This document shows, piece by piece, positions 45,638 to 64,000 of a stretch of 64,000 nt of DNA. The stretch comes from an uncultured Verrucomicrobiales bacterium (GTDB taxonomy: Bacteria > Verrucomicrobiota > Verrucomicrobiia > Verrucomicrobiales > Akkermansiaceae), in NCBI GenBank assembly GCA_937928545.1, contig CALGJQ010000029.1, forward strand, positions 1-64,000, written 5' to 3'. Position 1 is the first letter of the stretch, and each line of letters starts with the position of its first letter. The notes beneath the pieces are model-generated. The model was not told the DNA's origin. It did not search any database and saw only the letters and a program-made list of their open reading frames with translations. Made by a program: the position numbers and the translations under genes.

Positions 45638-45665
45638 TGGCGGAGAGGGAAGGAATTGAATCTCT
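45638..45665. repeat. tRNA 3'-end-like att repeat, copy 1, marking the left boundary of integrative element 1
   Basis: tggcggagagggaaggaattgaa is repeated at 56452 with one mismatch. Its reverse complement reads TTCAA-TCCTTCCCTCTCCGCCA, which corresponds to T-loop position 54 through the CCA of a tRNA. Confidence 0.55.
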
Positions 45666-45747
45666 CCATTTCTTCTCCTTATAAAACAAAGCATTCAGCC
45701 TTTGGCGGAATTCCTTGGTGTGCCACTTGTGTGACGCTTTTAATAGT

Positions 45748-45761
45748 GCCGATAGGATAAA
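45748..45761 (+). promoter_or_regulatory. Conserved motif TAAAAATCTGACAA, 27 nt upstream of rep-like gene 1
   Basis: An identical 14-mer lies 25 nt upstream of the paralogous gene at 56635. Confidence 0.5.
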
Positions 45762-45787
45762 AATCTGACAAGTCTTTTCAAAGGGCT

Positions 45788-47134
45788 ATGGAAGTCGGAA
45801 AAGGGGTCATGCTAACTGGCTACGATGACCTCCCTACGATTGAGAACGCGAAACACGACCGGATAAAGGTTCAACAGAAGTCATGGATTCTCTCTTATCC
45901 AAGTGAGTCGGCTCTTCAAGAGTTCGTGCTTCGATTAAGGACTGTGGTTATCGGCTCGGATTCAGACACAATAGAGTATTCCCAGTTAGAAGGTGATCTT
46001 GATGAAAGCACGGGGTGGATATTCGTGAGTGCTCCTAATTCCCAACGAAGGGGGCTTACTCGGTTAAACGTTAGAAGGAGTCGAACAACCTCACACAGAC
46101 ATAGATTCGGGATGCCGCTTTTCAAGGGGAGTATCGACATTCGAGAATCACCCCAGACGGCACAAGCATCAGCTGTGATAACGAGCACGCTTTATCTTAA
46201 TCCCACTAGATTTGCGCGCTGGCAGGATGCAGAGGAAGGGAGCGCGTTTGTGTTTTGGACGCCTCGCCGACGATTTCGTGAGAGGGGGCGAAATCAGTCA
46301 TTGGATCGATCTGACAACTACATGTCACGGGAGCAGTATCAAAGATTTGACGGTGCTGATGCTTGGTTTGGACTCCTAGAGAGCTATTGGAGCGGAGTTG
46401 TCGGAGAGATTGAAAGAGAGTTCTCTAGAGCTTCGATGGCGGCTGAGGCGTCGTTCCGACGTCAACATGGGGAGAGGAACTCCACAAAGGTTAAGGAGGT
46501 GGAGGTGTATTGGGAAATGGCCTCCGATGATGCCTTGAACGAGCTATCTAGGATCAGGCCGATACTCAGAGGAATTGGACGTGATAGCCGTGAGTCTTCA
46601 TATCCGACCATAATAGGAGACATTGAGCGCGATTGCCCCTCTTTTACCATTCAGCTATGTAACGGCGTTAAACTGCGTGTCTATGCGAAGACGGAGACAA
46701 GAATTAGATTCGAGGTGGCTTATAAATTGGGAGGAAGTGGGCGGTATCAGCTCAGAGGGGGAACAGCGGGTGATGAGCCTGCAATTTTGAATCGTATTTG
46801 TCGTGAAGCTGCGATTGATGCCTCTAACCGTCTTTCTGAGATTTTCCCTCTCTTATCTGAGGTGATCCCAAGGGCGGTAACACTGATGGACTTCTTTGAT
46901 GCTCTTCATTCAAGTTCATCTTCGTTAACTGAAGCAACAGCGATCCTTCGCTTGCTGGTCGCAAATGGATCGGTCTCCATTGGACGGCGGGGAACAATTA
47001 GGCGACGAGCAATCGACAAACTAATTAGGCGTGAGGTTTTACGGTCTTCTCCAGTCCACAGTGGGAGTGCATTTTTAAGTGAGGATTATCGTTCTCTTCT
47101 TAATCATGCATTCCCTTCGTCATCACTCCTTTAG
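45788..47134 (+). CDS. Element-encoded protein, putative replication initiator (paralog 1)
   Basis: 448 aa, paralogous to 56635..57984, sharing GMPLF and LNPTRFA / VNPTRFA blocks. The position and upstream motif are the same in both elements. Confidence 0.6.
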   Translation: MEVGKGVMLTGYDDLPTIENAKHDRIKVQQKSWILSYPSESALQEFVLRLRTVVIGSDSDTIEYSQLEGDLDESTGWIFVSAPNSQRRGLTRLNVRRSRTTSHRHRFGMPLFKGSIDIRESPQTAQASAVITSTLYLNPTRFARWQDAEEGSAFVFWTPRRRFRERGRNQSLDRSDNYMSREQYQRFDGADAWFGLLESYWSGVVGEIEREFSRASMAAEASFRRQHGERNSTKVKEVEVYWEMASDDALNELSRIRPILRGIGRDSRESSYPTIIGDIERDCPSFTIQLCNGVKLRVYAKTETRIRFEVAYKLGGSGRYQLRGGTAGDEPAILNRICREAAIDASNRLSEIFPLLSEVIPRAVTLMDFFDALHSSSSSLTEATAILRLLVANGSVSIGRRGTIRRRAIDKLIRREVLRSSPVHSGSAFLSEDYRSLLNHAFPSSSLL

Positions 47135-47171
47135 CATCTTTCGTTCTACTGTGTTAGGGGTGCTTCTGAAT

Positions 47172-47187
47172 TTGCAACCGGTTGCAA
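47172..47187. repeat. Perfect 16-bp palindrome TTGCAACCGGTTGCAA (site A)
   Basis: Seen directly in the sequence. Extended context is AATTTGCAACCGGTTGCAACAG. Confidence 0.7.
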
Positions 47188-47206
47188 CAGGGTGTGGATG
47201 ATGAGG

Positions 47207-47869
47207 CTAGTTCACGAAATTCTGAGATTCAGCATCTTCAACCTCTTGTTCTTCCTCAATGAAGCCAGCGAAGACTTTCATCATCTCGACTAGCTCTTCC
47301 TGTTTGGCCATATCGCGAAGCACTGAGTCTGGGACTTTAGGCGTTGATTGATTGGCATGATTTTCTGCCATTCGTGGAGTGAAACCTTGGAAGCTATCCA
47401 TCTTGATTCGGATGGTAAGAAGAAGGTTAAGAGCTTCTTTTTTCGCTCGCTCTGAAGTGGCGTCATTGTATTCCTGAAAGGCCAATTTCCAAAGCAGTTC
47501 ATATTCCATTAGAGCTTTCCCTCTCTGCGTCTCAATGTCTGGCCAAGAACAATCCCTTTTCCAACGAACCTCAACCCTTCCTCGATAGCGTTCAAGTTGT
47601 CTCCGGTCTGTGATTTCCAACAAGGGCATAAGTTCGCGTGAATGGGTAACTCCTTGAAGCATGAGTTGCTCTAGTCTCAGAACCTGCTCCTCGTCCCGTA
47701 ATGCCCTATCGCATTCGATGGGAGGGGAAGGGACTTCTACTTCATCTGAGGGGCGAGCGCGCCTCTCTGCAAGGGGAAGGCCTACGCGCCGTCTCTGGCG
47801 GGGAAGGGGAGGTGTGGTAGATTCAGCACTCACGGCGTGCATCCTAACACAGTCCTTTTCCTTCTTCAA
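47207..47869 (-). CDS. Hypothetical protein (220 aa) bracketed by two palindromes
   Basis: ORF with balanced composition and no recognisable motif. Confidence 0.5.
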   Translation of the reverse strand: MKKEKDCVRMHAVSAESTTPPLPRQRRRVGLPLAERRARPSDEVEVPSPPIECDRALRDEEQVLRLEQLMLQGVTHSRELMPLLEITDRRQLERYRGRVEVRWKRDCSWPDIETQRGKALMEYELLWKLAFQEYNDATSERAKKEALNLLLTIRIKMDSFQGFTPRMAENHANQSTPKVPDSVLRDMAKQEELVEMMKVFAGFIEEEQEVEDAESQNFVN

Positions 47870-47902
47870 GAAAGGGACAGCTTAGAGGGCAGTTTTTGTA
47901 GG

Positions 47903-47918
47903 TTGCAACCGGTTGCAA
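47903..47918. repeat. Perfect 16-bp palindrome TTGCAACCGGTTGCAA (site B)
   Basis: Located between the start of the 220-aa gene and the end of the next gene. Confidence 0.7.
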
Positions 47919-47921
47919 TTG

Positions 47922-48818
47922 TCAGTTTCGAAGTTCTTTCACGATTTGATCTCTTACTTCTGGAGAGCTAAATGGCAGTTCTTCTCCTCGATAGATATAG
48001 CGATTTCCTGATGCGTTAGGGGGGACAAAGAGCAGTAGCTTGTCAGCTTCTTCCTTCGTGATTTCCATCTCCCCCGCGACGGCAACTCTGAAAGAATTTC
48101 TCTGCCTAGCAAGATCATCGGGGAAGGCATTCAAAATCCTCTTTCGATTTTGGGCGTAAATTGCGTTTGCTCGAATCACGTCAGGAGACGGAACACTAGA
48201 AGGAATCTTAACGTCCCAAACTTCTGATTTGTCATCCCCTGACCAGCCTTTCCCGTCTGGAATATAGTTCACCATTGCCACAATTTGAGATGCCCCGTGC
48301 TCGATTGAGTGACGACTCATCTCGGCAATCACCGATACTGTTTCAGCCTTCGTTTTTTCCTGAAGATTTCGCGCTGCATAGATGAGAGTCGCGGCATAAT
48401 CTTGCGGCCTCTCAGAGCCTTCGACGACGACACGCCAAGTTAACCGCTTCCTCGATCCAAAGGAGGAATTTTCAGATTCGTAGATCTTGAAAGTGCGAAT
48501 TGCTCCAAGGCGTTCGGCAAGTTCGTCGTTTTTCAGCCTTTCGATTTCCTTGATGAGTTCCCCAAATTCTTCGTCTTCAATCGCTGAATACTTCCTTTTC
48601 AGTTCTTCTAAAGTTGAAAGGTCTTCTTCAGATACAGCCTTTTCGGCTTTCGCTATGATCTCGGAACGATTTTCCTCAAAATCTTTACGCTGTTGAGAAA
48701 TGCCAATGCTTCCGATGATTAGCAGAAGCACAAAGATTCCAACGACCACGGCTAGTGCAACTACGCACCCTTTCTTCTTCGGTTTGGTTTGCGGGAGAGG
48801 GGGTGGAGTCTGTGTCAT
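47922..48818 (-). CDS. Membrane-anchored hypothetical protein (298 aa)
   Basis: N-terminal Pro/Lys-rich segment plus a single TM helix. Confidence 0.5.
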   Translation of the reverse strand: MTQTPPPLPQTKPKKKGCVVALAVVVGIFVLLLIIGSIGISQQRKDFEENRSEIIAKAEKAVSEEDLSTLEELKRKYSAIEDEEFGELIKEIERLKNDELAERLGAIRTFKIYESENSSFGSRKRLTWRVVVEGSERPQDYAATLIYAARNLQEKTKAETVSVIAEMSRHSIEHGASQIVAMVNYIPDGKGWSGDDKSEVWDVKIPSSVPSPDVIRANAIYAQNRKRILNAFPDDLARQRNSFRVAVAGEMEITKEEADKLLLFVPPNASGNRYIYRGEELPFSSPEVRDQIVKELRN

Positions 48819-48945
48819 TGCTTAGGTGGTTTACTGCTCCCCGCGCTATGCCGAGGTCCGTGCATATATGCACGTATCAGGCACCGCATTGGAAGGGTAA
48901 AAACGAAGCCTGAGCATTGACCCTAAAGACCTAGCTTCGGCAGTT

Positions 48946-49152
48946 GTGGAAATCCTTAGAGAGAAGCGAGTTGAGCAGGGCCTATCCCATGAAGCTCTCT
49001 CCAAGCTCTCGGGAGTTCATCGCACAACTGTGAGCCGAGTTGAGAGAAACCAGATAAACGCCACTCTGTTTGTTCTTCAGAGTATGGCGGGCGCGTTGAA
49101 CCATCCTCTAAGTGAGATTTTGGCTCAGGCTGAAGATCGCTTGAAAAGGTGA
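48946..49152 (+). CDS. XRE-family helix-turn-helix transcriptional regulator
   Basis: QGLSHEALSKLSGVHRTTVSRVERNQ is a Cro/C1-type HTH. Confidence 0.7.
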   Translation: MEILREKRVEQGLSHEALSKLSGVHRTTVSRVERNQINATLFVLQSMAGALNHPLSEILAQAEDRLKR

Positions 49153-49299
49153 TTTTCTCAGCTTTTTAAAGTAGCACTGAGGCCTTGGATTCGCTGGGAT
49201 GTGCATGAAATGAATCCTTCAGAACTTCTGATGTGGATCAATGTGGGTTTAGTGCCTAACCTCTCTTAACGGAGCTGAAATCATTTCAGCTTTTCGACG

Positions 49300-50622
49300 A
49301 TGAGCGCACAGCCTTTATCGTTGGATAGTGCTCACCGGAAAATAAACTCAATGGATGATCTGTTTGACTCGGAACCAAAGCTTCCCAATCCGAAGCGGAA
49401 GGGGAGCGTGTCAATTGGTGTTGGAGGGTGGTCTCGCTTTCATGCGGCGTTCTCGAGAGCGTTCGTAGAAGCGGCAATTGCTGATTTGTCTCAGAATTAC
49501 AAGAGCCCTCTAATATTTGATCCGTTTGTTGGTTCTGGGACGTCTATCGAAGCTGCTCGGAGCATGGGGCTTCCTATAGTTGCAAACGATTTGGACCCCG
49601 TCTCTGCGCTAATGTCTCGAGCAAAGGCTTCTAGTGATTATTCGCTTAGAACTATATTAGCCCTTCTTAAAAAGGGCCGTTCTAAGAAAATAAACGTCAA
49701 TTTTTCCGAAGCAGACCAATATTTCAGCCCTGAAAGTTGGGCCTACTGTTCAGACGTGGTAACGCGCTTGAGAAAGAAGGTAGGCAAATGTAGTAACTTG
49801 GTTTCTACTCTCGTCGAATCGACCCCGGGGAAATATGACAATGAGGTGCTAGCCCTAGCATCTATTTTGATGAGCGCATCAGTTGCTTGGAAGGGACGAG
49901 GTAGTTCCAATCCAACGTGGCATAAGAAAACCTCTGCGAATCCTACTGTGGAGTCGCTAGCCGATCTTACGACCGATGCCGCAACGAAAATAGTCTCTGA
50001 TTTATCTCAGGATTTCCCCGAAAAGTGTGTGCGAGGGACCAGAGTTTATATGAGGAATATTGCTGAGCCAATAGCATTGAAGACGAGGCCTCCAAATGTT
50101 GTTGTAACGTCTCCACCTTACCTAACTAGGATTGATTACATTAAGAATCATTTGCCGGAGGTTGTGATTCTAAATGCCTTTCAAGATTTTGAAATCCGAT
50201 CTCTAAGAGATCAAATGATTGGAACCCCGACAATTCCGAAGGGTGAGCGCTCAACGGGAAGTGGCTCAAAAAAGGCCGAGAAGATAATGAAGGAGATTGA
50301 GGGGCATGAGAGCTTCGGATCTGCCAACTACTACCTTCCTTTTTACAGAAATTACTTCGTCACTATGGAAAAGTTTTTACGAAGTTTAAAAGGGATGATT
50401 GCCGCAGATGCAAGCGGCTACATCGTTGTTCAGGAATCCCGCTACAAGGAGTTGATCGTAGATCTTCCTGCAATTGTTGTCGAACAACTGGAGTCTATAG
50501 GGGCTACGGCTTCTGTGCGTTCCGAATTTCCTGTGGGTTCATCTTATTCAAACCTAAACTCTAAATACCGGAATTCGAATAGTAGGAAATTGGTAGAGTC
50601 GGTGGTTAGCTTCAAATTTTAG
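49300..50622 (+). CDS. DNA methyltransferase (amino-MTase, alpha-class motif order)
   Basis: Motif I LIFDPFVGSGTS lies about 200 aa before motif IV VVTSPPY. Confidence 0.8.
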   Translation: MSAQPLSLDSAHRKINSMDDLFDSEPKLPNPKRKGSVSIGVGGWSRFHAAFSRAFVEAAIADLSQNYKSPLIFDPFVGSGTSIEAARSMGLPIVANDLDPVSALMSRAKASSDYSLRTILALLKKGRSKKINVNFSEADQYFSPESWAYCSDVVTRLRKKVGKCSNLVSTLVESTPGKYDNEVLALASILMSASVAWKGRGSSNPTWHKKTSANPTVESLADLTTDAATKIVSDLSQDFPEKCVRGTRVYMRNIAEPIALKTRPPNVVVTSPPYLTRIDYIKNHLPEVVILNAFQDFEIRSLRDQMIGTPTIPKGERSTGSGSKKAEKIMKEIEGHESFGSANYYLPFYRNYFVTMEKFLRSLKGMIAADASGYIVVQESRYKELIVDLPAIVVEQLESIGATASVRSEFPVGSSYSNLNSKYRNSNSRKLVESVVSFKF

Positions 50623-51614
50623 TAGTGCGTTGAATCAAAAATTGGTTCCCAGACTTCTTCCCAGTCATCGAGCCAATTGACGGCACAAAAGTCGTTGAAG
50701 CAACATTTCTCCTGTTTGAGCGGTTCAAGATTAGCCGCCTTATCTACGTCAAGTTTTGATCTGCATAGCGGAGAAGATCGTATGCACTGGCTTCTAGCGA
50801 GCATCCATTCGACGTAATTCACATGAGCGATACTGAGGTTAGAGAATTGAGCTACGCATCCAAGAGCTTGGGCTGTAGCTCTGCGAGCTTCCTCCACAAA
50901 GACTCTGCTGGGCTGATTTTTGTGGGACGTAAGCCTTTCAAGTGCCAGTTTGTGTTTAGGGAAGATCCTACCTGATCTCAGGTAAATTCTGATGATATGG
51001 TAATCTATCGCAGGCTTGATGTTCTCTGGATCAGTTATAGCGATATTACCATTCCTTACGAGTTCGTGAACAAGAACACACGATTTTTTTCTCAGTGGAT
51101 CAGCCTCAAATGCAGGGAACTCGTCGAGGTAGCTATATAAGCCTTTTGGGCCACTAAGACGTTTTTTTGACTTAGAAAGCAAGGATTGAAGGCTGCATTT
51201 AAATTTTGACTCCAAAATTTTAGCCGTTTCTTTGAGGATGCCAATTCTCTCGTTTGATCTTATTCTAGTCTCATCGATGCCCTCACCAAAAGGCTGCTCG
51301 AATTGTTCTGGCGTGATGTCTCTGACTAGGTTCGTTATTTGTGTTGCTGATTTACACCCCGCAAATAATTTGCTCATAGCGGATTCGAGTTCGTTCCAGT
51401 TATACTGGTGACATATCGAAATGAAGAAGAATTTCTCGGTTAAATCCCTGCCAGACCACGGAGAACCAAGCGATGGATTAGAGTCCTTTAGAAGAGTGAG
51501 CTTTTGGGCCGAAAGCTGGCAAGCAATCTCACTAACGCCGAACCAAGGGTCTGATTTAGGGTCTGGAAGAAGCCTCTCAGTTCTTGATGTGCCCGAGGCA
51601 TTTGGATTTTTCAT
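50619..51614 (-). CDS. DUF2419 / Qng1-like nucleotide N-glycosylase family protein
   Basis: ERIGILKETAKILESKFKCS and flanking blocks resemble the queuosine-5'-phosphate N-glycosylase (Qng1/C9orf64, DUF2419) family core ER-RIL-ETGKIL-EKFGGS. This is recognition by eye. Confidence 0.55.
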   Translation of the reverse strand: MKNPNASGTSRTERLLPDPKSDPWFGVSEIACQLSAQKLTLLKDSNPSLGSPWSGRDLTEKFFFISICHQYNWNELESAMSKLFAGCKSATQITNLVRDITPEQFEQPFGEGIDETRIRSNERIGILKETAKILESKFKCSLQSLLSKSKKRLSGPKGLYSYLDEFPAFEADPLRKKSCVLVHELVRNGNIAITDPENIKPAIDYHIIRIYLRSGRIFPKHKLALERLTSHKNQPSRVFVEEARRATAQALGCVAQFSNLSIAHVNYVEWMLARSQCIRSSPLCRSKLDVDKAANLEPLKQEKCCFNDFCAVNWLDDWEEVWEPIFDSTHY

Positions 51615-52155
51615 GGAGATACTTTTCCTGCTCAGGTGTCCGATTCATATCGAGGTGAGCTTGCTTGACGTTGAAGCCTTCCCTTTGTAGGGCTTCTATT
51701 TTGAGCGGGTTGTTGGATTCAATTCGAATGTCTTTTGGCGTATTCATACTTGCCAAAAGTTTTGCAGCAAAATCAAAATCTCTCTCATCTTTTGAGAAAC
51801 CTAATTCCTTAAAAGCGTCCGAAGTGTTGAGACCTTGCGCCTGTTGGAGGCCGATAGCCTCACATTTTTTAAGTAGTCCGATTCCTCGACCTTCCTCGAA
51901 AGAATAGATTAAAAGACCCGGGCTAGTTTTAAGTTCGTCGAGAAAAGATTCTAGCTGATGGCCACAATCGCAATCATCAGCACCGATAGCCTCGCTGAAC
52001 AAACAAGAGGAATGTATTCTAACCAAAACAGGGCCATCTCCAAAATTATCGTCCTTATAAACGATGGCATGACTTTCATCTGACAGGGGGACTCTTATCC
52101 AGTAGTCAAAGCCTTTGCGGGTGATTCGAATGGGCTCTGTAAGCTCTATACTCAT
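51577..52155 (-). CDS. GTP cyclohydrolase II (RibA-family) homolog
   Basis: VRIHSSCLFSEAIGADDCDCGHQLE (zinc Cys triad), EGRGIGLLKK, ERDFDF and SNNPLK align along the whole length with E. coli RibA motifs. Confidence 0.85.
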   Translation of the reverse strand: MSIELTEPIRITRKGFDYWIRVPLSDESHAIVYKDDNFGDGPVLVRIHSSCLFSEAIGADDCDCGHQLESFLDELKTSPGLLIYSFEEGRGIGLLKKCEAIGLQQAQGLNTSDAFKELGFSKDERDFDFAAKLLASMNTPKDIRIESNNPLKIEALQREGFNVKQAHLDMNRTPEQEKYLHEKSKCLGHIKN

Positions 52156-54512: not shown

Positions 54513-54591
54513 AATCTTGTAATGATTGACCCCTTTTAAAGGGTTGGGATTTGTAGCATCATTGTAATACGAGTTCTAGGTTTCATGTCGA

Positions 54592-56388: not shown

Positions 56389-56451
56389 TTGCAGACTTTA
56401 ACGCTTTGATTTACAATGTTTCCTCTAACTTTAAGTGAGTTAGAGGGAAGG

Positions 56452-56478
56452 TGGCGGAGAGGGAAGGACTTGAACTCT
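56452..56478. repeat. tRNA 3'-end-like att repeat, copy 2, at the junction between element 1 and element 2
   Basis: tggcggagagggaaggacttgaa. Its reverse complement, TTCAAGTCCTTCCCTCTCCGCCA, equals tRNA positions 54-76 (probably a Ser-type tRNA with a GGAGAGG acceptor stem and G73). Confidence 0.55.
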
Positions 56479-56596
56479 GGGTGCTATGAGCACTTATTTT
56501 CAAGGACTTACAAATCCTGTAAAACATGGGTGTGTATCACCCGCGCTTCGGGGGTGATTATTCAAGGTTGGAGACCTTGGGAAAAGCTTAAACGGG

Positions 56597-56610
56597 TAAA
56601 AATCTGACAA
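56597..56610 (+). promoter_or_regulatory. Conserved motif TAAAAATCTGACAA, 25 nt upstream of rep-like gene 2
   Basis: Identical to the 14-mer at 45748..45761. Confidence 0.5.
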
Positions 56611-56634
56611 ACGCCTTCACCCTGTGGCGGGTTC

Positions 56635-57984: not shown

Positions 57985-58137
57985 GCAGCATTTAGAATTT
58001 CCTGTCTTAGCGTTACTCAGGCGGTAGGACTATGCCCCTAAAACCTTTTCAGCAAAGAGGAAAAAATTCAAGGTTCGTTTCACCGCAACTTGGTTTCGGG
58101 CCATGTTTTACGTAGGAAAAAAATCTGGTATCTTCGC

Positions 58138-58371
58138 TCAGTGTTGATCACTTGTGTTTGGTTGACGCTGCCGAGCGGATTCTCGCTGTAACATCCAATT
58201 TCTGAGGCCTTGTTCTCGCCTTCTCCTACTCTTCTCGATTTGTCTCCCAAACTCTTTCCAATCTTCGTCAGATTTGATCCCTCCCAAGAGGGCGGCGTCT
58301 CTTTCTCGACGATCTAAGTTTTTCGGCTCTTGCTCAGTCCGGCCACTTGAACACTCTTCTCCCATACTCAT
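58138..58371 (-). CDS. Small basic hypothetical protein (77 aa)
   Basis: ORF only; Arg/Glu-rich. Confidence 0.25.
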   Translation of the reverse strand: MSMGEECSSGRTEQEPKNLDRRERDAALLGGIKSDEDWKEFGRQIEKSRRRREQGLRNWMLQRESARQRQPNTSDQH

Positions 58372-58426
58372 GTTCGGACTATAACATTTTTAGGACGAGC
58401 TAGCCAGCGCACGGTGCCGAAAGAGG

Positions 58427-59269
58427 CTAAGGCAAGGCGACGGTTGGAGGTGCGATCAATACCTCTTTGCCCTTTTTGCTCGAATGCGCGCTATAATGGA
58501 GGGAAAAGGATCGGCAGGTCATGTCCCGATATAGTGCTCTAATTTCGGGTGCGTCATCATAAGTAAGAACCCATGGGAAGTCTGCCTTGTCTCGGAGATA
58601 GTCAGACACCTTTGCATGATCCTCTGGCTTGTAGTGATTGAGGTAGAGCTGTGATCCTTTCACGAAGTAAGGTGGATCGAGATAGGCGAAAAAATCCTCG
58701 TTGGCGTATTCCTTCGACGATGCAGCAAGGAAATCGAGAGCATCCAAATTCGAAATCTTGATGGATTCTTTGTGGTCAGCAATCTCCTCAATTCTTGCGA
58801 TCAAAGAATCCTTGTTAAACCTCGCGTCAATTTTCCAATTCCCATTTTGGGCGATTCCACCAATCGGACCACCAGTCGCGATAATGCCAGATCGATTGCA
58901 CCTGTTTAGATAAAAACTAGCAAATCCAGTCTTAAACTGAGAATGCTTATTAGAGCTTTTGTAAATCGCCTTTTGATTTCGCCATTCATCTACTGTTATT
59001 GGAGTTCGGTGAATTGCGTTTTTGAGGCGTGTTGTTTGATTGAGAACTGCGTTCCAAAACGAGTAAATCCGATAGTCGGCATCGTTTATGAGAGCGGTTG
59101 AGACATGCCCTAGGAAAAGGAGTTGTAGGGCTGAAGACGCCCCTCCTGCATATGGTTCTGCGTAAATGCCTCCTTGGAGTCCGTTTGCATAAACGATTTG
59201 TTGGAGCAAGGGACAAAGCTTTCCTTTCCCACCTGGGTAACGGAGAGGGCTGACTTGGCTAGCGATCAT
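58427..59269 (-). CDS. Dam-family DNA adenine methyltransferase
   Basis: LRYPGGKGK at the N-terminus (Dam motif) and DPPY catalytic motif. Confidence 0.85.
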   Translation of the reverse strand: MIASQVSPLRYPGGKGKLCPLLQQIVYANGLQGGIYAEPYAGGASSALQLLFLGHVSTALINDADYRIYSFWNAVLNQTTRLKNAIHRTPITVDEWRNQKAIYKSSNKHSQFKTGFASFYLNRCNRSGIIATGGPIGGIAQNGNWKIDARFNKDSLIARIEEIADHKESIKISNLDALDFLAASSKEYANEDFFAYLDPPYFVKGSQLYLNHYKPEDHAKVSDYLRDKADFPWVLTYDDAPEIRALYRDMTCRSFSLHYSAHSSKKGKEVLIAPPTVALP

Positions 59270-60753
59270 TTTTTGACAGACAGAAGCTTTTCAAAAACTG
59301 GCTCAAGTTTGGCACAGAGTGATTCAATATCGGAATCGGTTACTGGGAAAAATTCAGCATGAACCCACGCGTTTAATGTTGTAAGAGAAAAAATTCCTTC
59401 TTTCTGTCCCAGCAACTGATTTACGACAGAAATAACTCTCTTTTCGAGCTGGATTGATGACCCTGCGTTGGAGTCGATTATGAACTTGAGCATACGTGAT
59501 AGCTTCGGAATCTCATTGGGATTTGCCTGATTGACAAATTTCATAAGTTTTGGCCAGTCACCAGCTTCCTTTACTGACCCAATTAGAGACAATTCCAACA
59601 GGAGCCTTACAAGGAGAGCCGTTGAGTTTTTATATTCACTATATCGAATGGAGTGAATTTCCTTGATCACCGAAGGGATTCTTTGATCAGGAAAGCAGCA
59701 TGTGAATTTTTTCTTAAAAAGCCCATTTCCGTATTTCCTACCCGCCTTCTTTTTCGGTGGGAGTTGCTTTTGGGGAGGGGTGGTAACTTTGGGAGGGGGT
59801 GGACTATTTGAAAGTTTCGCATAAAGAGCTTTGAACTCTTTCGGAGTCTGTCTTTTCTTCTTAGGTAATTGATCTTCCAACTTTCCGAGATAGCCCTTTA
59901 GCTTTCCGAGATCACCGACAGTTCTTGTGTCGAGCTTCTTCTTTCCCGTTTGCTCATCAATCGATAGGGAATCTTCAAGAATTATGCTGAGGAAATGTTG
60001 AAACCGCTCCATTCCTCCTGTCACCTCAATTCCTTTGTCGGGGCTGATTGAGAACCCTACCGTCTTTTGGGCTGTCGGAACGGTGATTATCTTATCGATG
60101 ACGGTTGCATGGGGGAATTTTTTTGGATCTGCGAGATCCTCTTTTATCTCCTTGGCCAAATCAAGGTGAGGAGAGATTTCGTAAATGCTTAGGGTTGCCA
60201 ACGACTCGGAAATCGCCCCGTCCGTTGCCCGACAGATTCGTTTGATCTCCTCAAGGCTCTCTCCAGCGTTGACCAGCTTTTGGATGAAAACCGCCTGTTG
60301 AATTTTGGACCACCGCTTGGAAAACGTTTCCGGCGTGTGCTTCATGTAAACATATATGTTTGCCTGAGTCCTGTCTGGTGCGCAAACAGTCCAAACCTTT
60401 CGGGGGAGGTTTTCGCCTAAGTCAGTTTGGAGTGCTTTGAAGGTTTTCTGAACGCTGGGGTCAGGCGCGCGAAGAGGATTGGTAAGCAGCTTATATGCAG
60501 CAAGCCGCCGATTCCCCTCGATCACGATCTTCTTGCCATTCTCAACCGCGATCACCAAGTCTTCGACTGGCAGGTAGCCAACTTGAGAAATCTGTCTTGC
60601 GAGTTGATCAATGTCCTCAGTTTCGAGGAGCTTTTCAATCGCTTCAGCCTCAGACTTTGTTTCGCCGAAAAGCCTCGGGTTTTTAAGGTCGAGGTGAAGT
60701 GATGAAATGACGTATTCACGTTTCTTCCATTCAGTATAGTTGGTCAGTGGCAT
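59266..60753 (-). CDS. ParB-like nuclease-domain protein with a C-terminal domain of unknown function
   Basis: KIVIEGNRRLAAYKLL is a ParB/Srx-type GxRR motif near the N-terminus. The gene overlaps the dam-like gene by 4 nt. Confidence 0.6.
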   Translation of the reverse strand: MPLTNYTEWKKREYVISSLHLDLKNPRLFGETKSEAEAIEKLLETEDIDQLARQISQVGYLPVEDLVIAVENGKKIVIEGNRRLAAYKLLTNPLRAPDPSVQKTFKALQTDLGENLPRKVWTVCAPDRTQANIYVYMKHTPETFSKRWSKIQQAVFIQKLVNAGESLEEIKRICRATDGAISESLATLSIYEISPHLDLAKEIKEDLADPKKFPHATVIDKIITVPTAQKTVGFSISPDKGIEVTGGMERFQHFLSIILEDSLSIDEQTGKKKLDTRTVGDLGKLKGYLGKLEDQLPKKKRQTPKEFKALYAKLSNSPPPPKVTTPPQKQLPPKKKAGRKYGNGLFKKKFTCCFPDQRIPSVIKEIHSIRYSEYKNSTALLVRLLLELSLIGSVKEAGDWPKLMKFVNQANPNEIPKLSRMLKFIIDSNAGSSIQLEKRVISVVNQLLGQKEGIFSLTTLNAWVHAEFFPVTDSDIESLCAKLEPVFEKLLSVKK

Positions 60754-60896
60754 CTGTGTCGGTTGTAGCTTGGCAAAGTGTGCTCAAAAAATGGTTCGTA
60801 ATAAAGCCTTCTTCTGGGCGGAGTAAATTCGACTCAAAAGGAAACTTTAGGTGTATTCAGAAAAACACTTGATTTTTTGAATACACTTGGTAGATA

Positions 60897-61532
60897 TTGG
60901 CCATGCCGAAAACGATCCCAGTTGCTATTCTTGTCCGAGTCTCGACAACGAAACAAGAGACAGATCGTCAGGTTTCCGAATTGGAAGCCTACGCGTTGAA
61001 GCAGGGATACTCAGTTTTTGAAGTCTGCCGGGAGTCAATTTCGGGGGCCGCTGCTATGGATTGTCGCGCTGGACTGAGTCGGGTTGAAGAGTTGGCGCGT
61101 TCGGGCCAGATCAAAAAGGTGCTTGTTCATGAAGTCTCTCGTCTTGCGAGGAAAAATAGTGTATGCCATAGCTTCGTTGAAGCACTGGAGGAAGCTGGCG
61201 TCTCGCTTTATTGGCACCAACAATCGATTGAGACCCTTCTCCCAAGTGGAAAAAGAAATCCGGCTGCTGCAATGATGTTTGCCTTACTTGCTGAGATGGC
61301 CCGATCTGAAAGAGACACCTTGACTGAGAGAATCAAGTCTGGCCTTGCTGAGGCTAGACGGAAAGGACGGACTCTAGGCCGTCCGAAAGGGTCGGGCTTG
61401 GATACCAAAGATTTCCTCTTCAAGCATCGTGACGTAAGGCGAAAGCTGAATGAAGGGCATTCGATAAGAAATACTGCCAAGATCACGGGTAAGGGCGTTT
61501 CGACGGTTCAGCGAGTGAAAGCGTTACTCTAA
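60897..61532 (+). CDS. Serine recombinase (resolvase/invertase family)
   Basis: AILVRVSTTKQETDRQ (catalytic Ser region), a resolvase core and a C-terminal HTH. Confidence 0.85.
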   Translation: MAMPKTIPVAILVRVSTTKQETDRQVSELEAYALKQGYSVFEVCRESISGAAAMDCRAGLSRVEELARSGQIKKVLVHEVSRLARKNSVCHSFVEALEEAGVSLYWHQQSIETLLPSGKRNPAAAMMFALLAEMARSERDTLTERIKSGLAEARRKGRTLGRPKGSGLDTKDFLFKHRDVRRKLNEGHSIRNTAKITGKGVSTVQRVKALL

Positions 61533-61546
61533 CGCCTCCATCTTCT

Positions 61547-61786
61547 CTATCGTAGTGACTCTTCGGCCTCGGTGATTATTGAGCTAAGGGTTAAATCGAG
61601 GGCGTTAGCGATTTTCTGAAATATGAACAAAGTCCCGTTTGTCTCTTCAGCTTCGATTCGGCCAATTGTGGAACGACTCACCCCCGCGAGGTCTGCCAGT
61701 TTTTGATGGGAAAGGCCCTGCTTTTTGCGGTGAGCTATGAGAACGGCAGTCACTTGAGATGATAGCTGTTTCGGGTCGATTGGCAC
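61547..61786 (-). CDS. XRE-family HTH regulator (paralog of 48946..49152)
   Basis: QGLSHQKLADLAGVSRSTIGRIE is a Cro/C1-type HTH. Confidence 0.7.
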   Translation of the reverse strand: MPIDPKQLSSQVTAVLIAHRKKQGLSHQKLADLAGVSRSTIGRIEAEETNGTLFIFQKIANALDLTLSSIITEAEESLR

Positions 61787-61842
61787 ATTCCCAGATTATT
61801 GCTGGTCTCCAATTAAAAATACGCCCACATAAGGGCGGTTAA

Positions 61843-62796
61843 ATGATTGCTACAATTTCAGGGAAAATTCGGGTTCTTCCACTTTGGGGGAAAGTCATCT
61901 TGGGAATCACCGCTTTCGGTGTTCTGAGTCTTGTCGGGCTGTTTGGTCTAGCCTTCGTTCTAGCTCTGGGCGACCTGATCGACAGTGAGGACAAGCAAAG
62001 CGATGCTGAGGTCATTGAGAGCGTTTCTACGGTGGAACCAAGCGGTTTCATTATGAGGGGAACGGTCTGCTTTGAGGACAGGGAATCTTCCAAATTGCTT
62101 TCAAACTCAAGTGATGCAGGAACGGTTTACAAACGGCTCAAGAGTGAGGGCAAGGCTTGGTCTTTTGACCACAACCTGCGAATCGCGATTCTGGAGGGGT
62201 CTCCAAAAGACGAATTGGTGAAAGTCGCTTTGACCGACTGGAAGGATCGTAGAACCAAAAGAGCTTTCTGGATTAGTGGAGAGGATTATTTGGCGAGGAC
62301 TCACTCGTTCGCTCAATTCGCGATGGACGGTTCGAAGATGGTGAGCCAACGGGACTTCAAAATAGTCCTTAATGGCCAAAATGAAGTGAGGCTAAGGCAG
62401 TTCAGTGTACGGGATTTCGCTTTCTTGGTGGAACTGATCTACAAGGGAATGGTTTCTGAAGAGGCTGCTAAAAAGTGTCTGATTTTTCCTGAATCAACGA
62501 TTGGAAAGCTTGTCTTTTGCTCTTTTGAGTATCGCTTGAAGAACCGTCTCATCTACTCAGTTGGGCAAGTTGGTGATGATGTGGAATACGACATCGCAGT
62601 GATTCGCGACGAGTCTCTTGAAACGAGATATAGCGATCCAAATGATCTATATCGCGAGATGAAGCCGGGAACCCTTCACGGTGCTGATCCAATGTGGCAA
62701 GGGGGAATGGTTTTCAATGGTTTTGAGGACTTCACGACTCAAAACGGCACGGTTCGGCGAATTCCAGTCTTCAGGATTGTGAATCCACAACCTTGA
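61843..62796 (+). CDS. Membrane-anchored hypothetical protein (317 aa)
   Basis: N-terminal TM helix; no recognisable motifs. Confidence 0.5.
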   Translation: MIATISGKIRVLPLWGKVILGITAFGVLSLVGLFGLAFVLALGDLIDSEDKQSDAEVIESVSTVEPSGFIMRGTVCFEDRESSKLLSNSSDAGTVYKRLKSEGKAWSFDHNLRIAILEGSPKDELVKVALTDWKDRRTKRAFWISGEDYLARTHSFAQFAMDGSKMVSQRDFKIVLNGQNEVRLRQFSVRDFAFLVELIYKGMVSEEAAKKCLIFPESTIGKLVFCSFEYRLKNRLIYSVGQVGDDVEYDIAVIRDESLETRYSDPNDLYREMKPGTLHGADPMWQGGMVFNGFEDFTTQNGTVRRIPVFRIVNPQP

Positions 62797-62800
62797 GAAT

Positions 62801-62816
62801 TTGCAACTGGTTGCAA
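62801..62816. repeat. Palindrome TTGCAACTGGTTGCAA (site C, one mismatch to sites A and B)
   Basis: Abuts the stop codon of integrase 2. Confidence 0.65.
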
Positions 62817-63959
62817 TTATTGCCACGGGTTGTCCTCAAGTCCTTCAATGGTGACCTGATCGACGATAGCTTTAAGCTGACTAAGCGGGAATCCTTTGCC
62901 GTAATCTGCTCCAGCGTTTTTCTTTCCCCCGCCAGTAGTCCACCCAAGAAGGGCAGTTCGCTTGTCATCGGAATCGGTGATTCTCCTTAGTTCATCGGTG
63001 ACTTGGTGTCTGAAGGTATGAAAAGTCTTCCTTTTTTTGTTTGGCTGGTTGGTTGTGACCTTTCGGATTTGGCGGTTAATCCACTGGCTTAAATCCTTTG
63101 CTCGGTTTCCTGTGAGTGAGTTCTCTTTGAACTCGCAGAAGAGAAAAGGATCTTCCCCTTGTTCCCTTCGCCTTTCCACAAAATTGAGGAATCCGCTTTC
63201 GATGATTTGTCGATGAATCGGGACTCGTCTCTGGCTGACTTCGCTTTTCAGTGATTTGATTGTCTGGCCAGTATCGTCTTCTTCTCTGACTGAAAGATAG
63301 TGAACACCCTCAGAGACTTTTACGTCTTCGATGAGAAGAGATGCCGCTTCATTGATACGCAAGCCATGAAAGACGCAAAGCAAAGGAACCCAAAACTTGC
63401 CCTCTGTTGCCAAGCCCTCTTCGTTGCTTGTTCCTCTAACTGACAAGAGGGAAGAGCTTGTGAAAAGTGCCCTGAGTTCAGTTGCTGTGAACGAAACATG
63501 CTCTTTCCTCTTCACTGCTGGCAAAAGGCCTCGCAGTGCTTTTGAGTCGAAAGGGTTTCTATCGATCCACTGAATTTCTTCAGCGTAGGAGAGAATGGAT
63601 TGAATCGTTATGAAAAGATCAAGCTGGCGTTTTGGGGCTAACCCTTTCCCCGTCTTTGCGACATTGGCGAGTTTCGCCGCCGCCCTGAAGTCCATACCGG
63701 GAAAGCGTTGGGTTTTGTTGGCTGGAATCTCTGCGAGAAATGAAACCAGCTTTTCGGCTTCATCATATCCGATAGACTTTAGCGGTTTATCGGGACCAAA
63801 GAAATCAATCAAGATTTCGATGGGCATCTGATACCCCGCAAGGGTCGATTTCTTGAGCTTGCCCTTGGCAAAACGAGTTGGGAATCGCTCGCAAATTTCT
63901 GCGATGATTCGGTGCGAGTGAGGGGTAGCTTGCCCTTGGCTAGCGATTATTGAGGCCAT
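62817..63959 (-). CDS. Tyrosine recombinase / integrase (element 2)
   Basis: FHGLRINEAASL, HTFRH and a GW..Y tail. Paralogous to the integrase at 54592..56388. Confidence 0.85.
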   Translation of the reverse strand: MASIIASQGQATPHSHRIIAEICERFPTRFAKGKLKKSTLAGYQMPIEILIDFFGPDKPLKSIGYDEAEKLVSFLAEIPANKTQRFPGMDFRAAAKLANVAKTGKGLAPKRQLDLFITIQSILSYAEEIQWIDRNPFDSKALRGLLPAVKRKEHVSFTATELRALFTSSSLLSVRGTSNEEGLATEGKFWVPLLCVFHGLRINEAASLLIEDVKVSEGVHYLSVREEDDTGQTIKSLKSEVSQRRVPIHRQIIESGFLNFVERRREQGEDPFLFCEFKENSLTGNRAKDLSQWINRQIRKVTTNQPNKKRKTFHTFRHQVTDELRRITDSDDKRTALLGWTTGGGKKNAGADYGKGFPLSQLKAIVDQVTIEGLEDNPWQ

Positions 63960-64000
63960 CGAAAACCGTTCGTCAACAGGTCCGGGATTTTCACCAGTCA

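What the first reader, a model, noticed from the sequence alone, without database searches (positions are those of the whole stretch)
45638..64000. Tandem array of two related integrative elements bounded by copies of a tRNA 3' end
A 23-nt core (TGGCGGAGAGGGAAGGA[A/C]TTGAA) occurs at 45638 and 56452. Its reverse complement is exactly T-loop position 54 to CCA of a tRNA with T-stem CCTTC, acceptor CCTCTCC and G73, which fits a Ser-like tRNA. This is where tyrosine integrases usually cross over. Each copy is followed by a conserved TAAAAATCTGACAA motif, a paralogous rep-like gene, an XRE regulator, cargo and a paralogous integrase. The intact target tRNA is expected on the minus strand just beyond the window end. 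The elements share their backbone but carry different cargo, so they look like site-specific cargo shuttles.
Basis: seen in the sequence. Interest (0 to 1): 0.65.

Follow-up and report, generated by a model that had tools for sequence, protein, structure and literature searches.

The report
Two integrative elements stacked at tRNA-Sec
Two related but diverged mobile DNA elements, each carrying different anti-phage genes, sit one after the other in the 3' end of the selenocysteine tRNA gene of an uncultured Akkermansiaceae bacterium; this is a familiar kind of genomic island whose replication-type gene belongs to a large uncharacterised family.

Summary
The 23-nt core occurs at 45638 and 56452, with none expected by chance. 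A public contig identical to the window end continues past 64000. It shows a third copy as the 3' end of an intact minus-strand tRNA-Sec (anticodon TCA) at window-equivalent 64668-64760. So the tRNA is Sec, not Ser.

Three related metagenomic contigs have the empty site (lptFG, 86 nt, tRNA-Sec, dnaE2). The 19 kb between them is therefore inserted DNA.

- Element A is 10.8 kb and element B is 8.2 kb.
- Each has an inward-facing DUF6538-type tyrosine integrase at the tRNA-proximal end (36% identical).
- Each has a 441/444-aa "Rep-like" gene at the far end (33% identical).
- Each has an XRE regulator (45% identical) and copies of a 16-bp palindrome.
- Cargo of B is the PD-Lambda-5 defence pair. 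Cargo of A is a methylase plus a STAND NTPase/GTP-cyclohydrolase-II-like operon.

The Rep-like protein matches no Pfam, NCBIfam or PHROG family, yet has 871 related clusters. Its confident model has the TBP-like fold of Rep_trans rolling-circle initiators and an RxYxK...RxE motif. This is a known kind of island with an undescribed hallmark gene family. Excision and nicking activity are untested.

The parts
45638..45660 (+). Distal att site (site 1). A 23-nt copy of the tRNA-Sec 3' end, A variant, lying 70 nt from the lptF/G start codon.
   Evidence: Synteny with relatives ends at about 45570. In empty-site relatives the intact tRNA-Sec sits at this position.
45758..45771 (+). Conserved 14-mer TAAAAATCTGACAA upstream of Rep-like gene A. 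Its role is unresolved: promoter -10-like, operator or arm site.
   Evidence: One search gives two exact copies. It is not conserved upstream of Rep-like genes in other loci. No conserved hairpin was found.
45809..47134 (+). Rep-like gene A (441 aa from the conserved ATG; the ORF could also start at 45788). The predicted catalytic domain has a TBP-like fold and the C-terminal part is winged-helix-like.
47172..47187 (.). 16-bp perfect palindrome TTGCAACCGGTTGCAA, 38 nt after the stop of Rep-like gene A. Candidate origin or Rep-binding site.
47207..47869 (-). 220-aa ORF with no family match, bracketed by the two palindromes.
47903..47918 (.). Second copy of the 16-bp palindrome in element A.
47922..48818 (-). 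DUF4875 protein with an N-terminal membrane anchor (cargo or accessory).
   Evidence: PF16175, 3.5e-18.
48946..49152 (+). XRE-type HTH_3 regulator of element A (68 aa), upstream of the methylase.
   Evidence: PF01381, 6.1e-13. It is 45% identical to the element B copy.
49300..50622 (+). DNA methyltransferase (N6_N4_Mtase / type II MTase-like), cargo of element A.
50619..54512 (-). Three-gene cargo operon of element A: a STAND-type AAA_16+TPR NTPase (52155-54512), a GTP cyclohydrolase II-like protein (51577-52155) and a 331-aa protein with only a weak Q_salvage hit (50619-51614).
   Evidence: There is no PADLOC system match.
54592..56388 (-). Integrase 1 (598 aa). Tyrosine recombinase with an N-terminal DUF6538 domain, reading inward from site 2.
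   Evidence: PF00589 4e-11, PF20172 4.7e-10; phrog_1 integrase.
56452..56474 (+). Middle att site (site 2). The 23-nt core with C at position 18, forming the junction between the integrase end of A and the Rep end of B.
56597..56610 (+). Second exact copy of TAAAAATCTGACAA, upstream of Rep-like gene B.
56650..57984 (+). Rep-like gene B (444 aa), 33% identical to A. The RxYxK...RxRxE motif is retained (RTYAKA..RLRFE).
   Evidence: P0124.
58138..58371 (-). 77-aa ORF called as a gene in the public contig, with no family match.
58427..60753 (-). PD-Lambda-5 anti-phage system, cargo of element B. Gene A is ParB-like (59266-60753) and gene B is a D12-class adenine methylase (58427-59269).
   Evidence: (PD-Lambda-5_B 2.9e-111, PD-Lambda-5_A 2.5e-43).
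60897..61532 (+). Small serine recombinase (resolvase).
   Evidence: PF00239, 5.2e-29.
61547..61786 (-). XRE-type HTH_3 regulator of element B (79 aa).
61843..62796 (+). 317-aa membrane-anchored protein with no family match.
62801..62816 (.). Third copy of the palindrome (TTGCAACTGGTTGCAA), between the 317-aa gene and the 3' end of integrase 2.
62817..64000 (-). Integrase 2, cut by the window end. The full gene is 592 aa and runs to window-equivalent 64595. Beyond it, outside the window, lies site 3: the intact minus-strand tRNA-Sec (anticodon TCA) at window-equivalent 64668-64760 (L001 12826-12918), whose 3' 23 nt are the core, A variant.
   Evidence: Integrase. tRNA-Sec beyond the window.

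Best explanation
Two diverged members of one family of site-specific integrative elements have inserted one after the other into the 3' end of the tRNA-Sec gene of an uncultured Akkermansiaceae bacterium.

Each element carries in its attP a copy of the last 23 nt of the tRNA, from the T-loop to CCA. Its DUF6538-type tyrosine integrase recombines attP with the tRNA gene. The tRNA is rebuilt, and a partial copy is left at the far end.

After two such events the order on the + strand is: lptFG, partial copy, element A (10.8 kb), partial copy, element B (8.2 kb), intact tRNA-Sec, dnaE2. The order of arrival cannot be read from the sequence, because both orders give the same junctions.

The shared backbone has four parts:
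- an inward-facing integrase at the tRNA end;
- a Rep-like gene at the opposite end, so that the two genes diverge across attP in the excised circle;
- an XRE regulator;
- one or two copies of a 16-bp palindrome.

The rest is cargo. B carries the PD-Lambda-5 defence pair. A carries a methylase and a STAND-NTPase operon.

Inferred, not shown: after excision the Rep-like protein, a TBP-fold enzyme of the Rep_trans type, uses Tyr292 to nick at or near the palindrome. This would start rolling-circle replication of the circle, keeping it from being lost before it re-integrates or transfers. I put this step at about 0.55. How the elements move between cells is unknown.
For: Shown by the sequence and tool results:
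- Three core copies sit exactly at the junctions, the third inside an intact tRNA-Sec.
- Three relatives have the clean empty site lptFG, 86 nt, tRNA-Sec, dnaE2, all with the A variant of the core.
- Synteny with other relatives stops at the lptFG start.
- GC is 46.1% in A and 47.5% in B, against 51.4% in the chromosome to the left.
- The integrases are full-length and 36% identical. Their alignment shows conserved GxRxNE, HxFRH and a C-terminal Tyr-containing stretch. Reading these as the tyrosine-recombinase catalytic residues is my inference by analogy. Pfam gives DUF6538 plus Phage_integrase.
- The backbone paralogs are only 33-45% identical, so these are two separate acquisitions and not a duplication.

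Family-level support:
- 871 Rep-like clusters were found.
- 50 genomic loci, in Verrucomicrobiota and Alphaproteobacteria, carry the gene.
- 21 of the 50 have a tyrosine recombinase within the same 8-kb tile, and 11 have tRNA genes nearby.
- att repeats were verified at tRNA-Tyr in L035 (54 nt) and at tRNA-Ser in L050 (20 nt). L050 is a 4.5-kb interval holding only a DUF6538-bearing ORF, an unassigned 433-aa ORF, two small ORFs and the Rep-like gene.

Support for the Rep function:
- The AlphaFold model is confident: pLDDT 87, pTM 0.88.
- The best BFVD hit is A0A345MNV4 (prob 1.0). PMC13107129 describes it as an Inoviridae Rep_trans initiator.
- Y292, A293, K294, R298, R300 and E302 are invariant in 60 sequences, within an R290-x-Y-x-K...R-x-R-x-E motif; D17, E232 and E236 are near-invariant. 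This parallels R189-x-Y191-x-K193, R212-x-E214 and three carboxylates on separate strands in RepDE (PMC4797284).
- Symmetric variants of the palindrome occur in 16 other Rep loci, against about 1.5 expected by chance. None occurs in 300 kb of Rep-less control DNA. Several lie within about 100 nt of the Rep-like gene and most within about 1 kb.
Against: - No direct evidence of excision, circles or replication is available.
- No recognisable excisionase was found.
- The Rep-like family does not match PF02486 or DUF7845, even at E up to 10, in any of 60 members.
- Profile-profile comparison with the pT181 RepC family is not significant (prob 0.2%), although its only local alignment is LRVYAKT against IRIYNKK.
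- The family was not found on any of 72,556 plasmids with three queries. A replication initiator might be expected there.
- In most related loci the integrase and the Rep-like gene are adjacent and co-directional. Here they are at opposite ends.
- In element B the palindrome lies 4.8 kb from the Rep-like gene.
- None of 28 metagenomic tRNA-Sec loci with the same 3' end carries a related element.
Confidence: 0.85

Rival explanations
1. The elements are integrative mobilizable elements. On this reading the Rep-like protein is a MobT-like relaxase of the Rep_trans type and the palindrome is an oriT. It would nick the excised circle for transfer through the conjugation pore of another element, not for replication.
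For: - Rep_trans-type proteins serve as relaxases of ICEs and IMEs in Firmicutes (titles and abstracts of PMC6499999, PMC7563843 and PMC5704250, listed).
- The elements are small and have no transfer genes of their own.
- The family is absent from plasmids and nearly absent from viral contigs.
- One family member gives a weak Mobilization_B hit, E 0.004.
Against: - No coupling protein or any conjugation gene was recognised in the window's two elements or among the neighbours that were annotated in L035, L050 and L062. Genes in the other tiles were screened only for Rep, integrase and XRE homologs and tRNAs.
- No sequence-level link to MobT or PF02486 exists.
- Nothing here shows that conjugative helpers exist in this host.
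- This rival concerns only the role of one gene and is compatible with the tandem-insertion model.
Confidence: 0.3
2. The units are phage satellites (PICI- or P4-like) or prophage remnants that spread inside helper-phage capsids.
For: - The layout is an integrase at a tRNA, a regulator, a replication-type gene and defence cargo, which resembles satellites.
- One family member lies on a contig that IMG/VR lists as viral. That contig has phage-tail genes next to the element.
Against: - No capsid, terminase, portal or packaging-redirection gene is present, and only the integrase and DUF4875 hit PHROGs.
- The Rep pattern occurs once in 2.9 million viral contigs, against 54 hits in genomes.
- No primase-helicase of the kind typical of satellites is present.
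Confidence: 0.07
3. The array is a decayed, no longer mobile island. On this reading it is either one old insertion that was internally duplicated, or a set of remnants kept only for their cargo.
For: - No related element was found at tRNA-Sec in 28 related metagenomic loci.
- Only one contig carrying this configuration was retrieved with exact-protein look-ups.
- The middle site differs by one base from the outer sites.
Against: - Both integrases and both Rep-like genes are full-length with the family's invariant residues.
- The paralogs are 33-45% identical and share no DNA similarity beyond the core, the 14-mer and the palindrome. This excludes a recent duplication.
- All three att cores are intact.
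Confidence: 0.08
4. The 23-nt repeat is a chance or dispersed genomic repeat unrelated to integration.
For: None found.
Against: - Zero matches are expected by chance.
- The only copies lie at the two unit boundaries and inside the tRNA-Sec gene.
- Empty-site relatives have a single copy.
Confidence: 0.01

Closest known systems
Tycheposons (Prochlorococcus and other marine bacteria; bioRxiv 10.1101/2020.12.28.424599)
   Same: - Site-specific integrase at one end, facing inward.
[quoted passage not shown]
- Variable cargo in between.
- Integration into tRNA genes leaves partial tRNA copies.
- Tandem junctions and island build-up at the tRNA.
- Some members use serine recombinases instead; compare L062.
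   Different: - The tycheposon replication modules named in that paper are primases, helicases and polymerases. Here the module is a single TBP-fold Rep_trans-like protein.
- Membership is defined by a lineage-specific integrase and shared hallmark gene profiles, which I could not test.
- The host phylum here is Verrucomicrobiota, and the cargo is anti-phage defence, not nutrient uptake.
Genomic and pathogenicity islands at selC (tRNA-Sec) in Enterobacteriaceae, such as LEE, PAI-I and SHI-2 (from my own knowledge, not checked here)
   Same: - The target gene is the same, tRNA-Sec.
- A tyrosine integrase lies next to the tRNA.
- Direct repeats of the tRNA 3' end are present.
- The cargo is variable.
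   Different: - Those islands are much larger, P4-type-integrase islands that mostly lack a replication gene.
- The integrase here has a DUF6538 N-terminal domain.
- Here two small complete units are stacked.
Rep_trans (PF02486) rolling-circle initiators and MobT relaxases, and the archaeal Rep-Arvir family (PMC4797284, PMC13107129)
   Same: - The predicted catalytic domain has a TBP-like fold.
- A conserved Tyr sits in an RxYxK strand next to an RxE strand, with further conserved carboxylates.
- The C-terminal region looks like a winged helix.
- A conserved DNA element with dyad symmetry lies next to the gene, as for Rep-SNJ2 and its downstream hairpin.
   Different: - No sequence-level match to PF02486 or DUF7845 was found.
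- The loop between the YxK and RxE strands is about 5 residues, against about 18 in RepC.
- The family was found only in chromosomally integrated contexts, not on plasmids or in phages.
- Activity is untested.
Actinomycete integrative and conjugative elements (pSAM2 type; PMC2440964 listed, details from my own knowledge)
   Same: They are small tRNA-integrating elements whose core is an integrase plus a rolling-circle Rep. They replicate after excision.
   Different: - AICE Rep proteins are of the HUH type.
- AICEs carry an FtsK-like transfer gene and an Xis.
- They occur in Actinobacteria.
PD-Lambda-5 defence system (PMC9519451; PADLOC models)
   Same: Element B carries both genes, adjacent and co-oriented, with strong matches.
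   Different: It is only cargo here. Its anti-phage activity in this host is not tested.

Membership tests
tRNA-targeting site-specific integrative element / genomic island | Direct repeats identical to the 3' end of a tRNA gene bound the inserted DNA, with the intact tRNA at one end. | tested here: met
   Cores lie at 45638, 56452 and within tRNA-Sec at window-equivalent 64668.
tRNA-targeting site-specific integrative element / genomic island | A site-specific recombinase gene lies next to the tRNA-proximal att site. | tested here: met
   Integrase 1 starts 64 nt from site 2, and integrase 2 starts 73 nt from the tRNA. Both have Phage_integrase and DUF6538 domains.
tRNA-targeting site-specific integrative element / genomic island | Related genomes have the uninterrupted (empty) target site. 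| tested here: met
   L073, L085 and L086 have lptFG, 86 nt, tRNA-Sec, dnaE2.
tRNA-targeting site-specific integrative element / genomic island | Excision to a circle with attP and restoration of attB. | not testable with these tools
   No read data are available, and exact-protein look-ups retrieved only one contig carrying this configuration.
Rep_trans superfamily (PF02486) nicking enzymes | Sequence match to the Rep_trans profile. | tested here: not met
   None of 60 members gives a PF02486 hit, even at E up to 10. hhalign against the pT181 RepC family gives prob 0.2%.
Rep_trans superfamily (PF02486) nicking enzymes | Catalytic domain with a TBP-like fold. | tested here: met
Rep_trans superfamily (PF02486) nicking enzymes | Active site with a catalytic Tyr in RxYxK, an RxE on the neighbouring strand, and three metal-binding carboxylates on separate strands. 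| tested here: inconclusive
   The motif is present: Y292, K294, R300 and E302 are invariant, R290 is conserved in most sequences, and D17, E232 and E236 are near-invariant on predicted strands. I could not superpose the residues, and the only hhalign local alignment pairs the two YxK motifs without significance.
Rep_trans superfamily (PF02486) nicking enzymes | Nicking with a covalent Tyr-DNA adduct at a cognate origin. | not testable with these tools
   This needs biochemistry. The candidate site is the 16-bp palindrome.
Tycheposons | [quoted passage not shown] | tested here: met
   The anatomy comes, compared with the definition read.
Tycheposons | A tycheposon-lineage integrase and the shared hallmark gene profiles. 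| not testable with these tools
   The profiles are not available here. The replication gene is not a primase, helicase or polymerase.
Phage satellites (PICI / P4-like) | Packaging or capsid-redirection genes and a primase-type replication module. | tested here: not met
   No such Pfam or PHROG hits were found. The Rep pattern occurs in 1 of 2.9 million viral contigs.
Integrative mobilizable elements | Own relaxase and oriT, no mating-pore genes, and transfer dependent on a helper. | tested here: inconclusive
   No mating-pore genes are present, and the Rep-like protein could serve as a relaxase. No relaxase family match was found beyond one weak Mobilization_B hit in 1 of 60 members.
PD-Lambda-5 defence system (cargo of element B) | Adjacent genes matching the PD-Lambda-5_A and PD-Lambda-5_B models. 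| tested here: met
   Gene A scores 2.5e-43 and gene B 2.9e-111. They overlap by 4 nt and are co-oriented.

The most novel reading that the evidence does not exclude
The 441-aa protein may found a third, bacterial branch of TBP-fold (Rep_trans-like) tyrosine nickases, invisible to current sequence profiles. Together with its TTGCAA-N4-TTGCAA palindrome and a swappable integrase, it would define a widespread, undescribed class of self-replicating, tRNA-targeting cargo elements in Verrucomicrobiota and Alphaproteobacteria. These elements would ferry anti-phage systems and stack in tandem.
Probability: 0.4. Interest if true: 0.7.

Novelty: new variant of a known kind. Interest (0 to 1): 0.5.

Why it matters
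Tandem islands at tRNA genes are textbook biology, and tRNA-Sec is a classic target, so the array itself is ordinary.

Four things are worth carrying forward:
- The hallmark gene has no family assignment in Pfam, NCBIfam or PHROGs. It nevertheless has 871 related clusters, a confident TBP-like/Rep_trans-like model, and a conserved palindrome beside it. This gives a testable candidate for how a large group of small islands in Verrucomicrobiota and Alphaproteobacteria maintain themselves after excision.
- It would extend the recently recognised TBP-fold initiator superfamily.
- It gives a simple marker (Rep-like gene plus palindrome plus integrase) for delimiting such islands and their defence cargo in poorly studied phyla.
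- Element A carries an unassigned STAND NTPase / GTP-cyclohydrolase-II-like operon in a place where the sister element carries a known defence system.

Tried and rejected
- **Truncated integrase look-up.** Looking up the 380-aa second integrase found nothing, because the gene runs off the window. A neighbouring gene gave the extending contig.
- **Closest LptF/G relatives.** Relatives at 81-82% identity (L002-L007) gave no empty site. Synteny ends at the lptFG start and no tRNA-Sec is there. The empty site came from scanning metagenomes for the tRNA-Sec 3' end.
- **Exact look-up of the host LptF/G.** It found only the same contig, so no strain variants are available.
- **The search for related loci.** I replaced it with a hand-made degenerate pattern over VYAK[TA]..R.R.E.
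- **Structure searches.** Foldseek against the PDB gave nothing usable, with TM scores of 0.17 or less. The afdb_sample library was unavailable.
- **Sequence-level link to known Rep families.** I looked for a link to Rep_trans or DUF7845 and found none.
- **Plasmid search.** Three family members found no match.
- **The 14-mer TAAAAATCTGACAA.** It is not conserved upstream of Rep-like genes elsewhere. The regions between core and Rep-like gene show no shared stable hairpin, with z-scores of 0.76 and -1.82. Its role stays open.
- **Order of arrival of A and B.** I considered it and dropped it, because both orders predict identical junctions.
- **DUF6538 literature search.** It returned no papers.

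Full report
**Observation.** The 23-nt core TGGCGGAGAGGGAAGGA[A/C]TTGAA occurs at 45638-45660 and 56452-56474. It occurs nowhere else in the window, even with three mismatches, and none is expected by chance. ARAGORN finds only tRNA-Arg and tRNA-Thr in the window, neither related to the repeat. The 14-mer TAAAAATCTGACAA follows each core exactly. The genes after each core are paralogs:
- the 441/444-aa proteins are 33% identical over their full length;
- the XRE-type HTH_3 proteins at 48946-49152 (+) and 61547-61786 (-) are 45% identical;
- the integrases are 36% identical.

The second integrase listed as 380 aa is really truncated by the window, since its frame is open to base 64000.

**Beyond the window.** An exact-protein look-up with the 317-aa gene at 61843-62796 returned a 56.9-kb public contig from run ERR9287619. 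Its locus L001 is identical to window 51843-64000 over all 12,158 shared bases and continues 7.6 kb further. L001 shows the following:
- The second integrase is 592 aa.
- 73 nt beyond its start codon lies a minus-strand tRNA-SeC with anticodon TCA, at window-equivalent 64668-64760.
- Rfam confirms it as tRNA-Sec at 59.2 bits, against a gathering score of 47.
- On the + strand the gene begins with the core, A variant.

The tRNA is Sec and not Ser. The three sites share 23 nt. The middle site has C at position 18 and shares one more base with the tRNA body.

**Is it an insertion?** LptF/G homologs name the host as an uncultured Akkermansiaceae bacterium of the Verrucomicrobiota. The closest LptF/G relatives (81-82% identity) are syntenic up to the lptFG start codon at about 45570 and then diverge. 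They have no tRNA-Sec there. A scan of metagenome contigs for the tRNA-Sec 3' end extended into the tRNA body found 28 loci.
- In L073, L085 and L086, lptFG (71-72.5% aa identity) is followed after 86 nt by an intact tRNA-Sec and then dnaE2 (76-84% identity). There is a single core copy, the A variant. This is the empty site.
- Two other relatives have 1.3 kb and 3.2 kb of unrelated genes at the same spot. The 3.2-kb stretch includes ORFs that by eye look like Cas9 HNH and Cas1 fragments.
- None of the 28 loci has a related integrase or Rep-like gene.

The inserted DNA is also lower in GC: 46.1% and 47.5%, against 51.4% in the chromosome to the left and 55.2% to the right. So 19 kb of foreign DNA lies between lptFG and tRNA-Sec, divided by the middle core into units of 10.8 and 8.2 kb.

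**Anatomy.** Each unit starts at the tRNA-distal side with the core, the 14-mer and the Rep-like gene reading inward. Each ends with the integrase reading inward from the tRNA-proximal core. In an excised circle the two genes would diverge across attP.

Both integrases combine an N-terminal DUF6538 domain with a Phage_integrase catalytic domain. Their alignment shows shared GxRxNE, HxFRH and C-terminal Tyr-containing stretches. I read these as the catalytic residues by analogy with other tyrosine recombinases.

Cargo differs between the units:
- Element B has the PD-Lambda-5 pair (gene B 2.9e-111, gene A 2.5e-43). It also has a small serine recombinase and a 317-aa membrane protein.
- Element A has a DUF4875 protein and an XRE gene upstream of an N6/N4 methylase. 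It also has a minus-strand operon of a STAND-type AAA_16+TPR NTPase, a GTP cyclohydrolase II-like protein and a 331-aa protein, none matching a PADLOC system.

The two units share no DNA similarity beyond the core, the 14-mer and a palindrome. They are therefore two separate acquisitions of related elements, not a duplication. Both possible orders of arrival give the same three junctions, so the order cannot be inferred. The C at position 18 of the middle site must come from an element's attP, because empty sites carry A.

**The Rep-like protein.**
- It has no Pfam, NCBIfam or PHROG match.
- A word-indexed search of 5.8 billion proteins found only two distant relatives.
- A profile search of 1.84 billion cluster representatives found 871 clusters at E of 0.001 or better, 219 of them at 1e-30 or better.
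- In a 60-sequence alignment, G107, N131, N170, Y292, A293, K294, R298, R300 and E302 are invariant. D17, E232 and E236 are nearly so.
- None of the 60 matches Rep_trans or DUF7845, even at E up to 10.
- The AlphaFold model is confident: pLDDT 87, pTM 0.88. It has two alpha/beta repeats followed by helices and short strands that look like winged-helix modules.
- Foldseek against the PDB found nothing.
- Foldseek against viral models put A0A345MNV4 first (E 5.6e-5, prob 1.0). PMC13107129 cites this Inoviridae protein as a Rep_trans-domain initiator. The same paper states that Rep_trans enzymes have the TBP fold and describes an archaeal sister family that is also unrecognisable by sequence.
- In RepDE the catalytic Y191 lies in R189-x-Y191-x-K193, next to R212-x-E214. 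The metal is bound by E214, D142 and D46, each on a separate strand (PMC4797284). The pT181 RepC sequence shows these motifs as RIYNK and RVE.
- The family here has R-V-Y292-A-K294 and R300-F-E302 on two adjacent predicted strands.
- Profile-profile comparison with the RepC family is not significant (prob 0.2%). Its single local alignment pairs LRVYAKT with IRIYNKK.

I conclude that this protein works like a Rep_trans-type tyrosine nickase. I hold that with moderate confidence and do not file it as a member of PF02486.

**The palindrome.** TTGCAACCGGTTGCAA occurs at 47172 (38 nt after the stop of Rep-like gene A), at 47903, and with one change at 62801. Symmetric variants such as TTGCAATCGATTGCAA, TTGCAACTAGTTGCAA and TTGAAACTGGTTTCAA occur in 16 other loci that carry a Rep-like gene. 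Several lie within about 100 nt of the gene and most within about 1 kb. Shuffles give about 1.5 hits. There is no hit in 171 kb of Rep-less tRNA-Sec loci, in 84 kb of relatives L002-L007, or in window 1-45637. This is a conserved cis element of the family. The most natural reading is the Rep-like protein's binding or nicking site, but a regulator's operator is not excluded. The 14-mer is specific to the two elements of this window, and no conserved hairpin accompanies it.

**The family elsewhere.**
- A degenerate pattern over the YAK...RxRxE motif found 54 stretches in 185,579 species genomes, and 50 of them encode true family members. They lie mainly in Verrucomicrobiota and Alphaproteobacteria.
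- 21 of the 50 have a tyrosine recombinase in the same 8-kb tile, mostly upstream of and co-directional with the Rep-like gene.
- 11 have a tRNA gene nearby, of several different types.
- Two tiles contain both ends of a unit. L035 has tRNA-Tyr with a 54-nt repeat. L050 has tRNA-Ser with a 20-nt repeat bounding a 4.5-kb interval. That interval holds only a DUF6538-bearing ORF, an unassigned 433-aa ORF, two small ORFs and the Rep-like gene.
- In a Micavibrio contig the Rep-like gene is flanked by a resolvase and a large serine recombinase.
- The pattern occurs once in 2.9 million viral contigs.
- Three family members found nothing in 72,556 plasmids.

The gene is thus a hallmark of chromosomally integrated, recombinase-linked units and not of plasmids or phages.

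**Comparison with known systems.**
[quoted passage not shown] The replication gene is different, however, and lineage membership could not be tested.
- The arrangement also resembles selC islands of enterobacteria, pSAM2-type elements and integrative mobilizable elements with Rep_trans relaxases.
- The satellite reading is weak, because there are no packaging genes.

**Verdict.** The finding is correct, and the array itself is ordinary: a tandem pair of tRNA-Sec-integrating elements with defence cargo. The less ordinary part is the unassigned Rep_trans-like hallmark family and its palindrome. Mobility, nicking and replication remain inferred.

Noticed in passing
window 50619-54512 (-) and 48946-50622 (+): The cargo of element A is an operon of a STAND-type AAA_16+TPR NTPase, a GTP cyclohydrolase II (RibA)-like protein and a 331-aa protein with only a weak queuosine-salvage hit. 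It is convergent with an XRE/controller-like gene plus a DNA methylase. No PADLOC system matches. Because it sits where the sister element carries PD-Lambda-5, it may be an undescribed defence system.
   Followed up: partly
L001 13000-13969 (window-equivalent 64842-65811, outside the window): A RES toxin / Xre antitoxin pair lies between tRNA-Sec and dnaE2-imuB. In the empty-site relatives L073, L085 and L086, dnaE2 lies within about 250 nt of the tRNA. The toxin-antitoxin pair therefore looks like a separate small insertion on the 5' side of the tRNA.
   Followed up: partly
L092 (oriented) 2034-5224; L089 8263-9521: In two relatives the same lptFG/tRNA-Sec gap holds other genes and no integrase, Rep-like gene or extra core copy. 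One holds ORFs that by eye look like Cas9 HNH and Cas1 fragments plus a LuxR-type HTH. The other holds ORFs that look like a truncated haemoglobin and a cytochrome-domain protein. These identities were judged by eye, not by a family search. The site appears to be a flexible hotspot in this clade.
   Followed up: partly
L062 2590-6540 (same contig as L041, Micavibrio MAG; IMG/VR UViG): Here the Rep-like gene is flanked by a small resolvase and a large serine recombinase, not a tyrosine integrase. It sits next to phage-tail/GTA-like genes (DUF1833, NlpC/P60, GpJ-like). This suggests that recombinases are exchangeable in this element family.
   Followed up: partly
L046, L059, L050, L038; L058, L039, L049; L016, L044, L008 (upstream of Rep-like genes): Subgroups of related loci share their own short motifs just upstream of the Rep-like gene: CCAnTGGACGCAC, TATTAGGCGT and CCCTATAGTATA. 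These may be subgroup-specific promoters or operators, playing the part that TAAAAATCTGACAA plays here.
   Followed up: no
L002-L007 versus window 45570: The closest LptF/G relatives (81-82% identity) do not have tRNA-Sec next to lptFG. A sulfatase gene or a contig end lies there instead. More distant relatives (70-72% identity) do have it, so the locus has been rearranged in part of the clade.
   Followed up: partly
window 33069-33145 (-) and 41022-41097 (+): Two other tRNA genes lie in the window: Arg-TCT and Thr-TGT. tRNA-Thr is conserved in five of the six relatives L002-L007. I did not check whether either has partial copies or islands nearby.
   Followed up: no
L050 4767-6518 and 6307-6326: In this compact 4.5-kb att-bounded interval, the distal 20-nt att repeat lies inside the 3' end of an unusually long (583-aa) Rep-like ORF. 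Integration may therefore alter the C-terminus of the protein.
   Followed up: no
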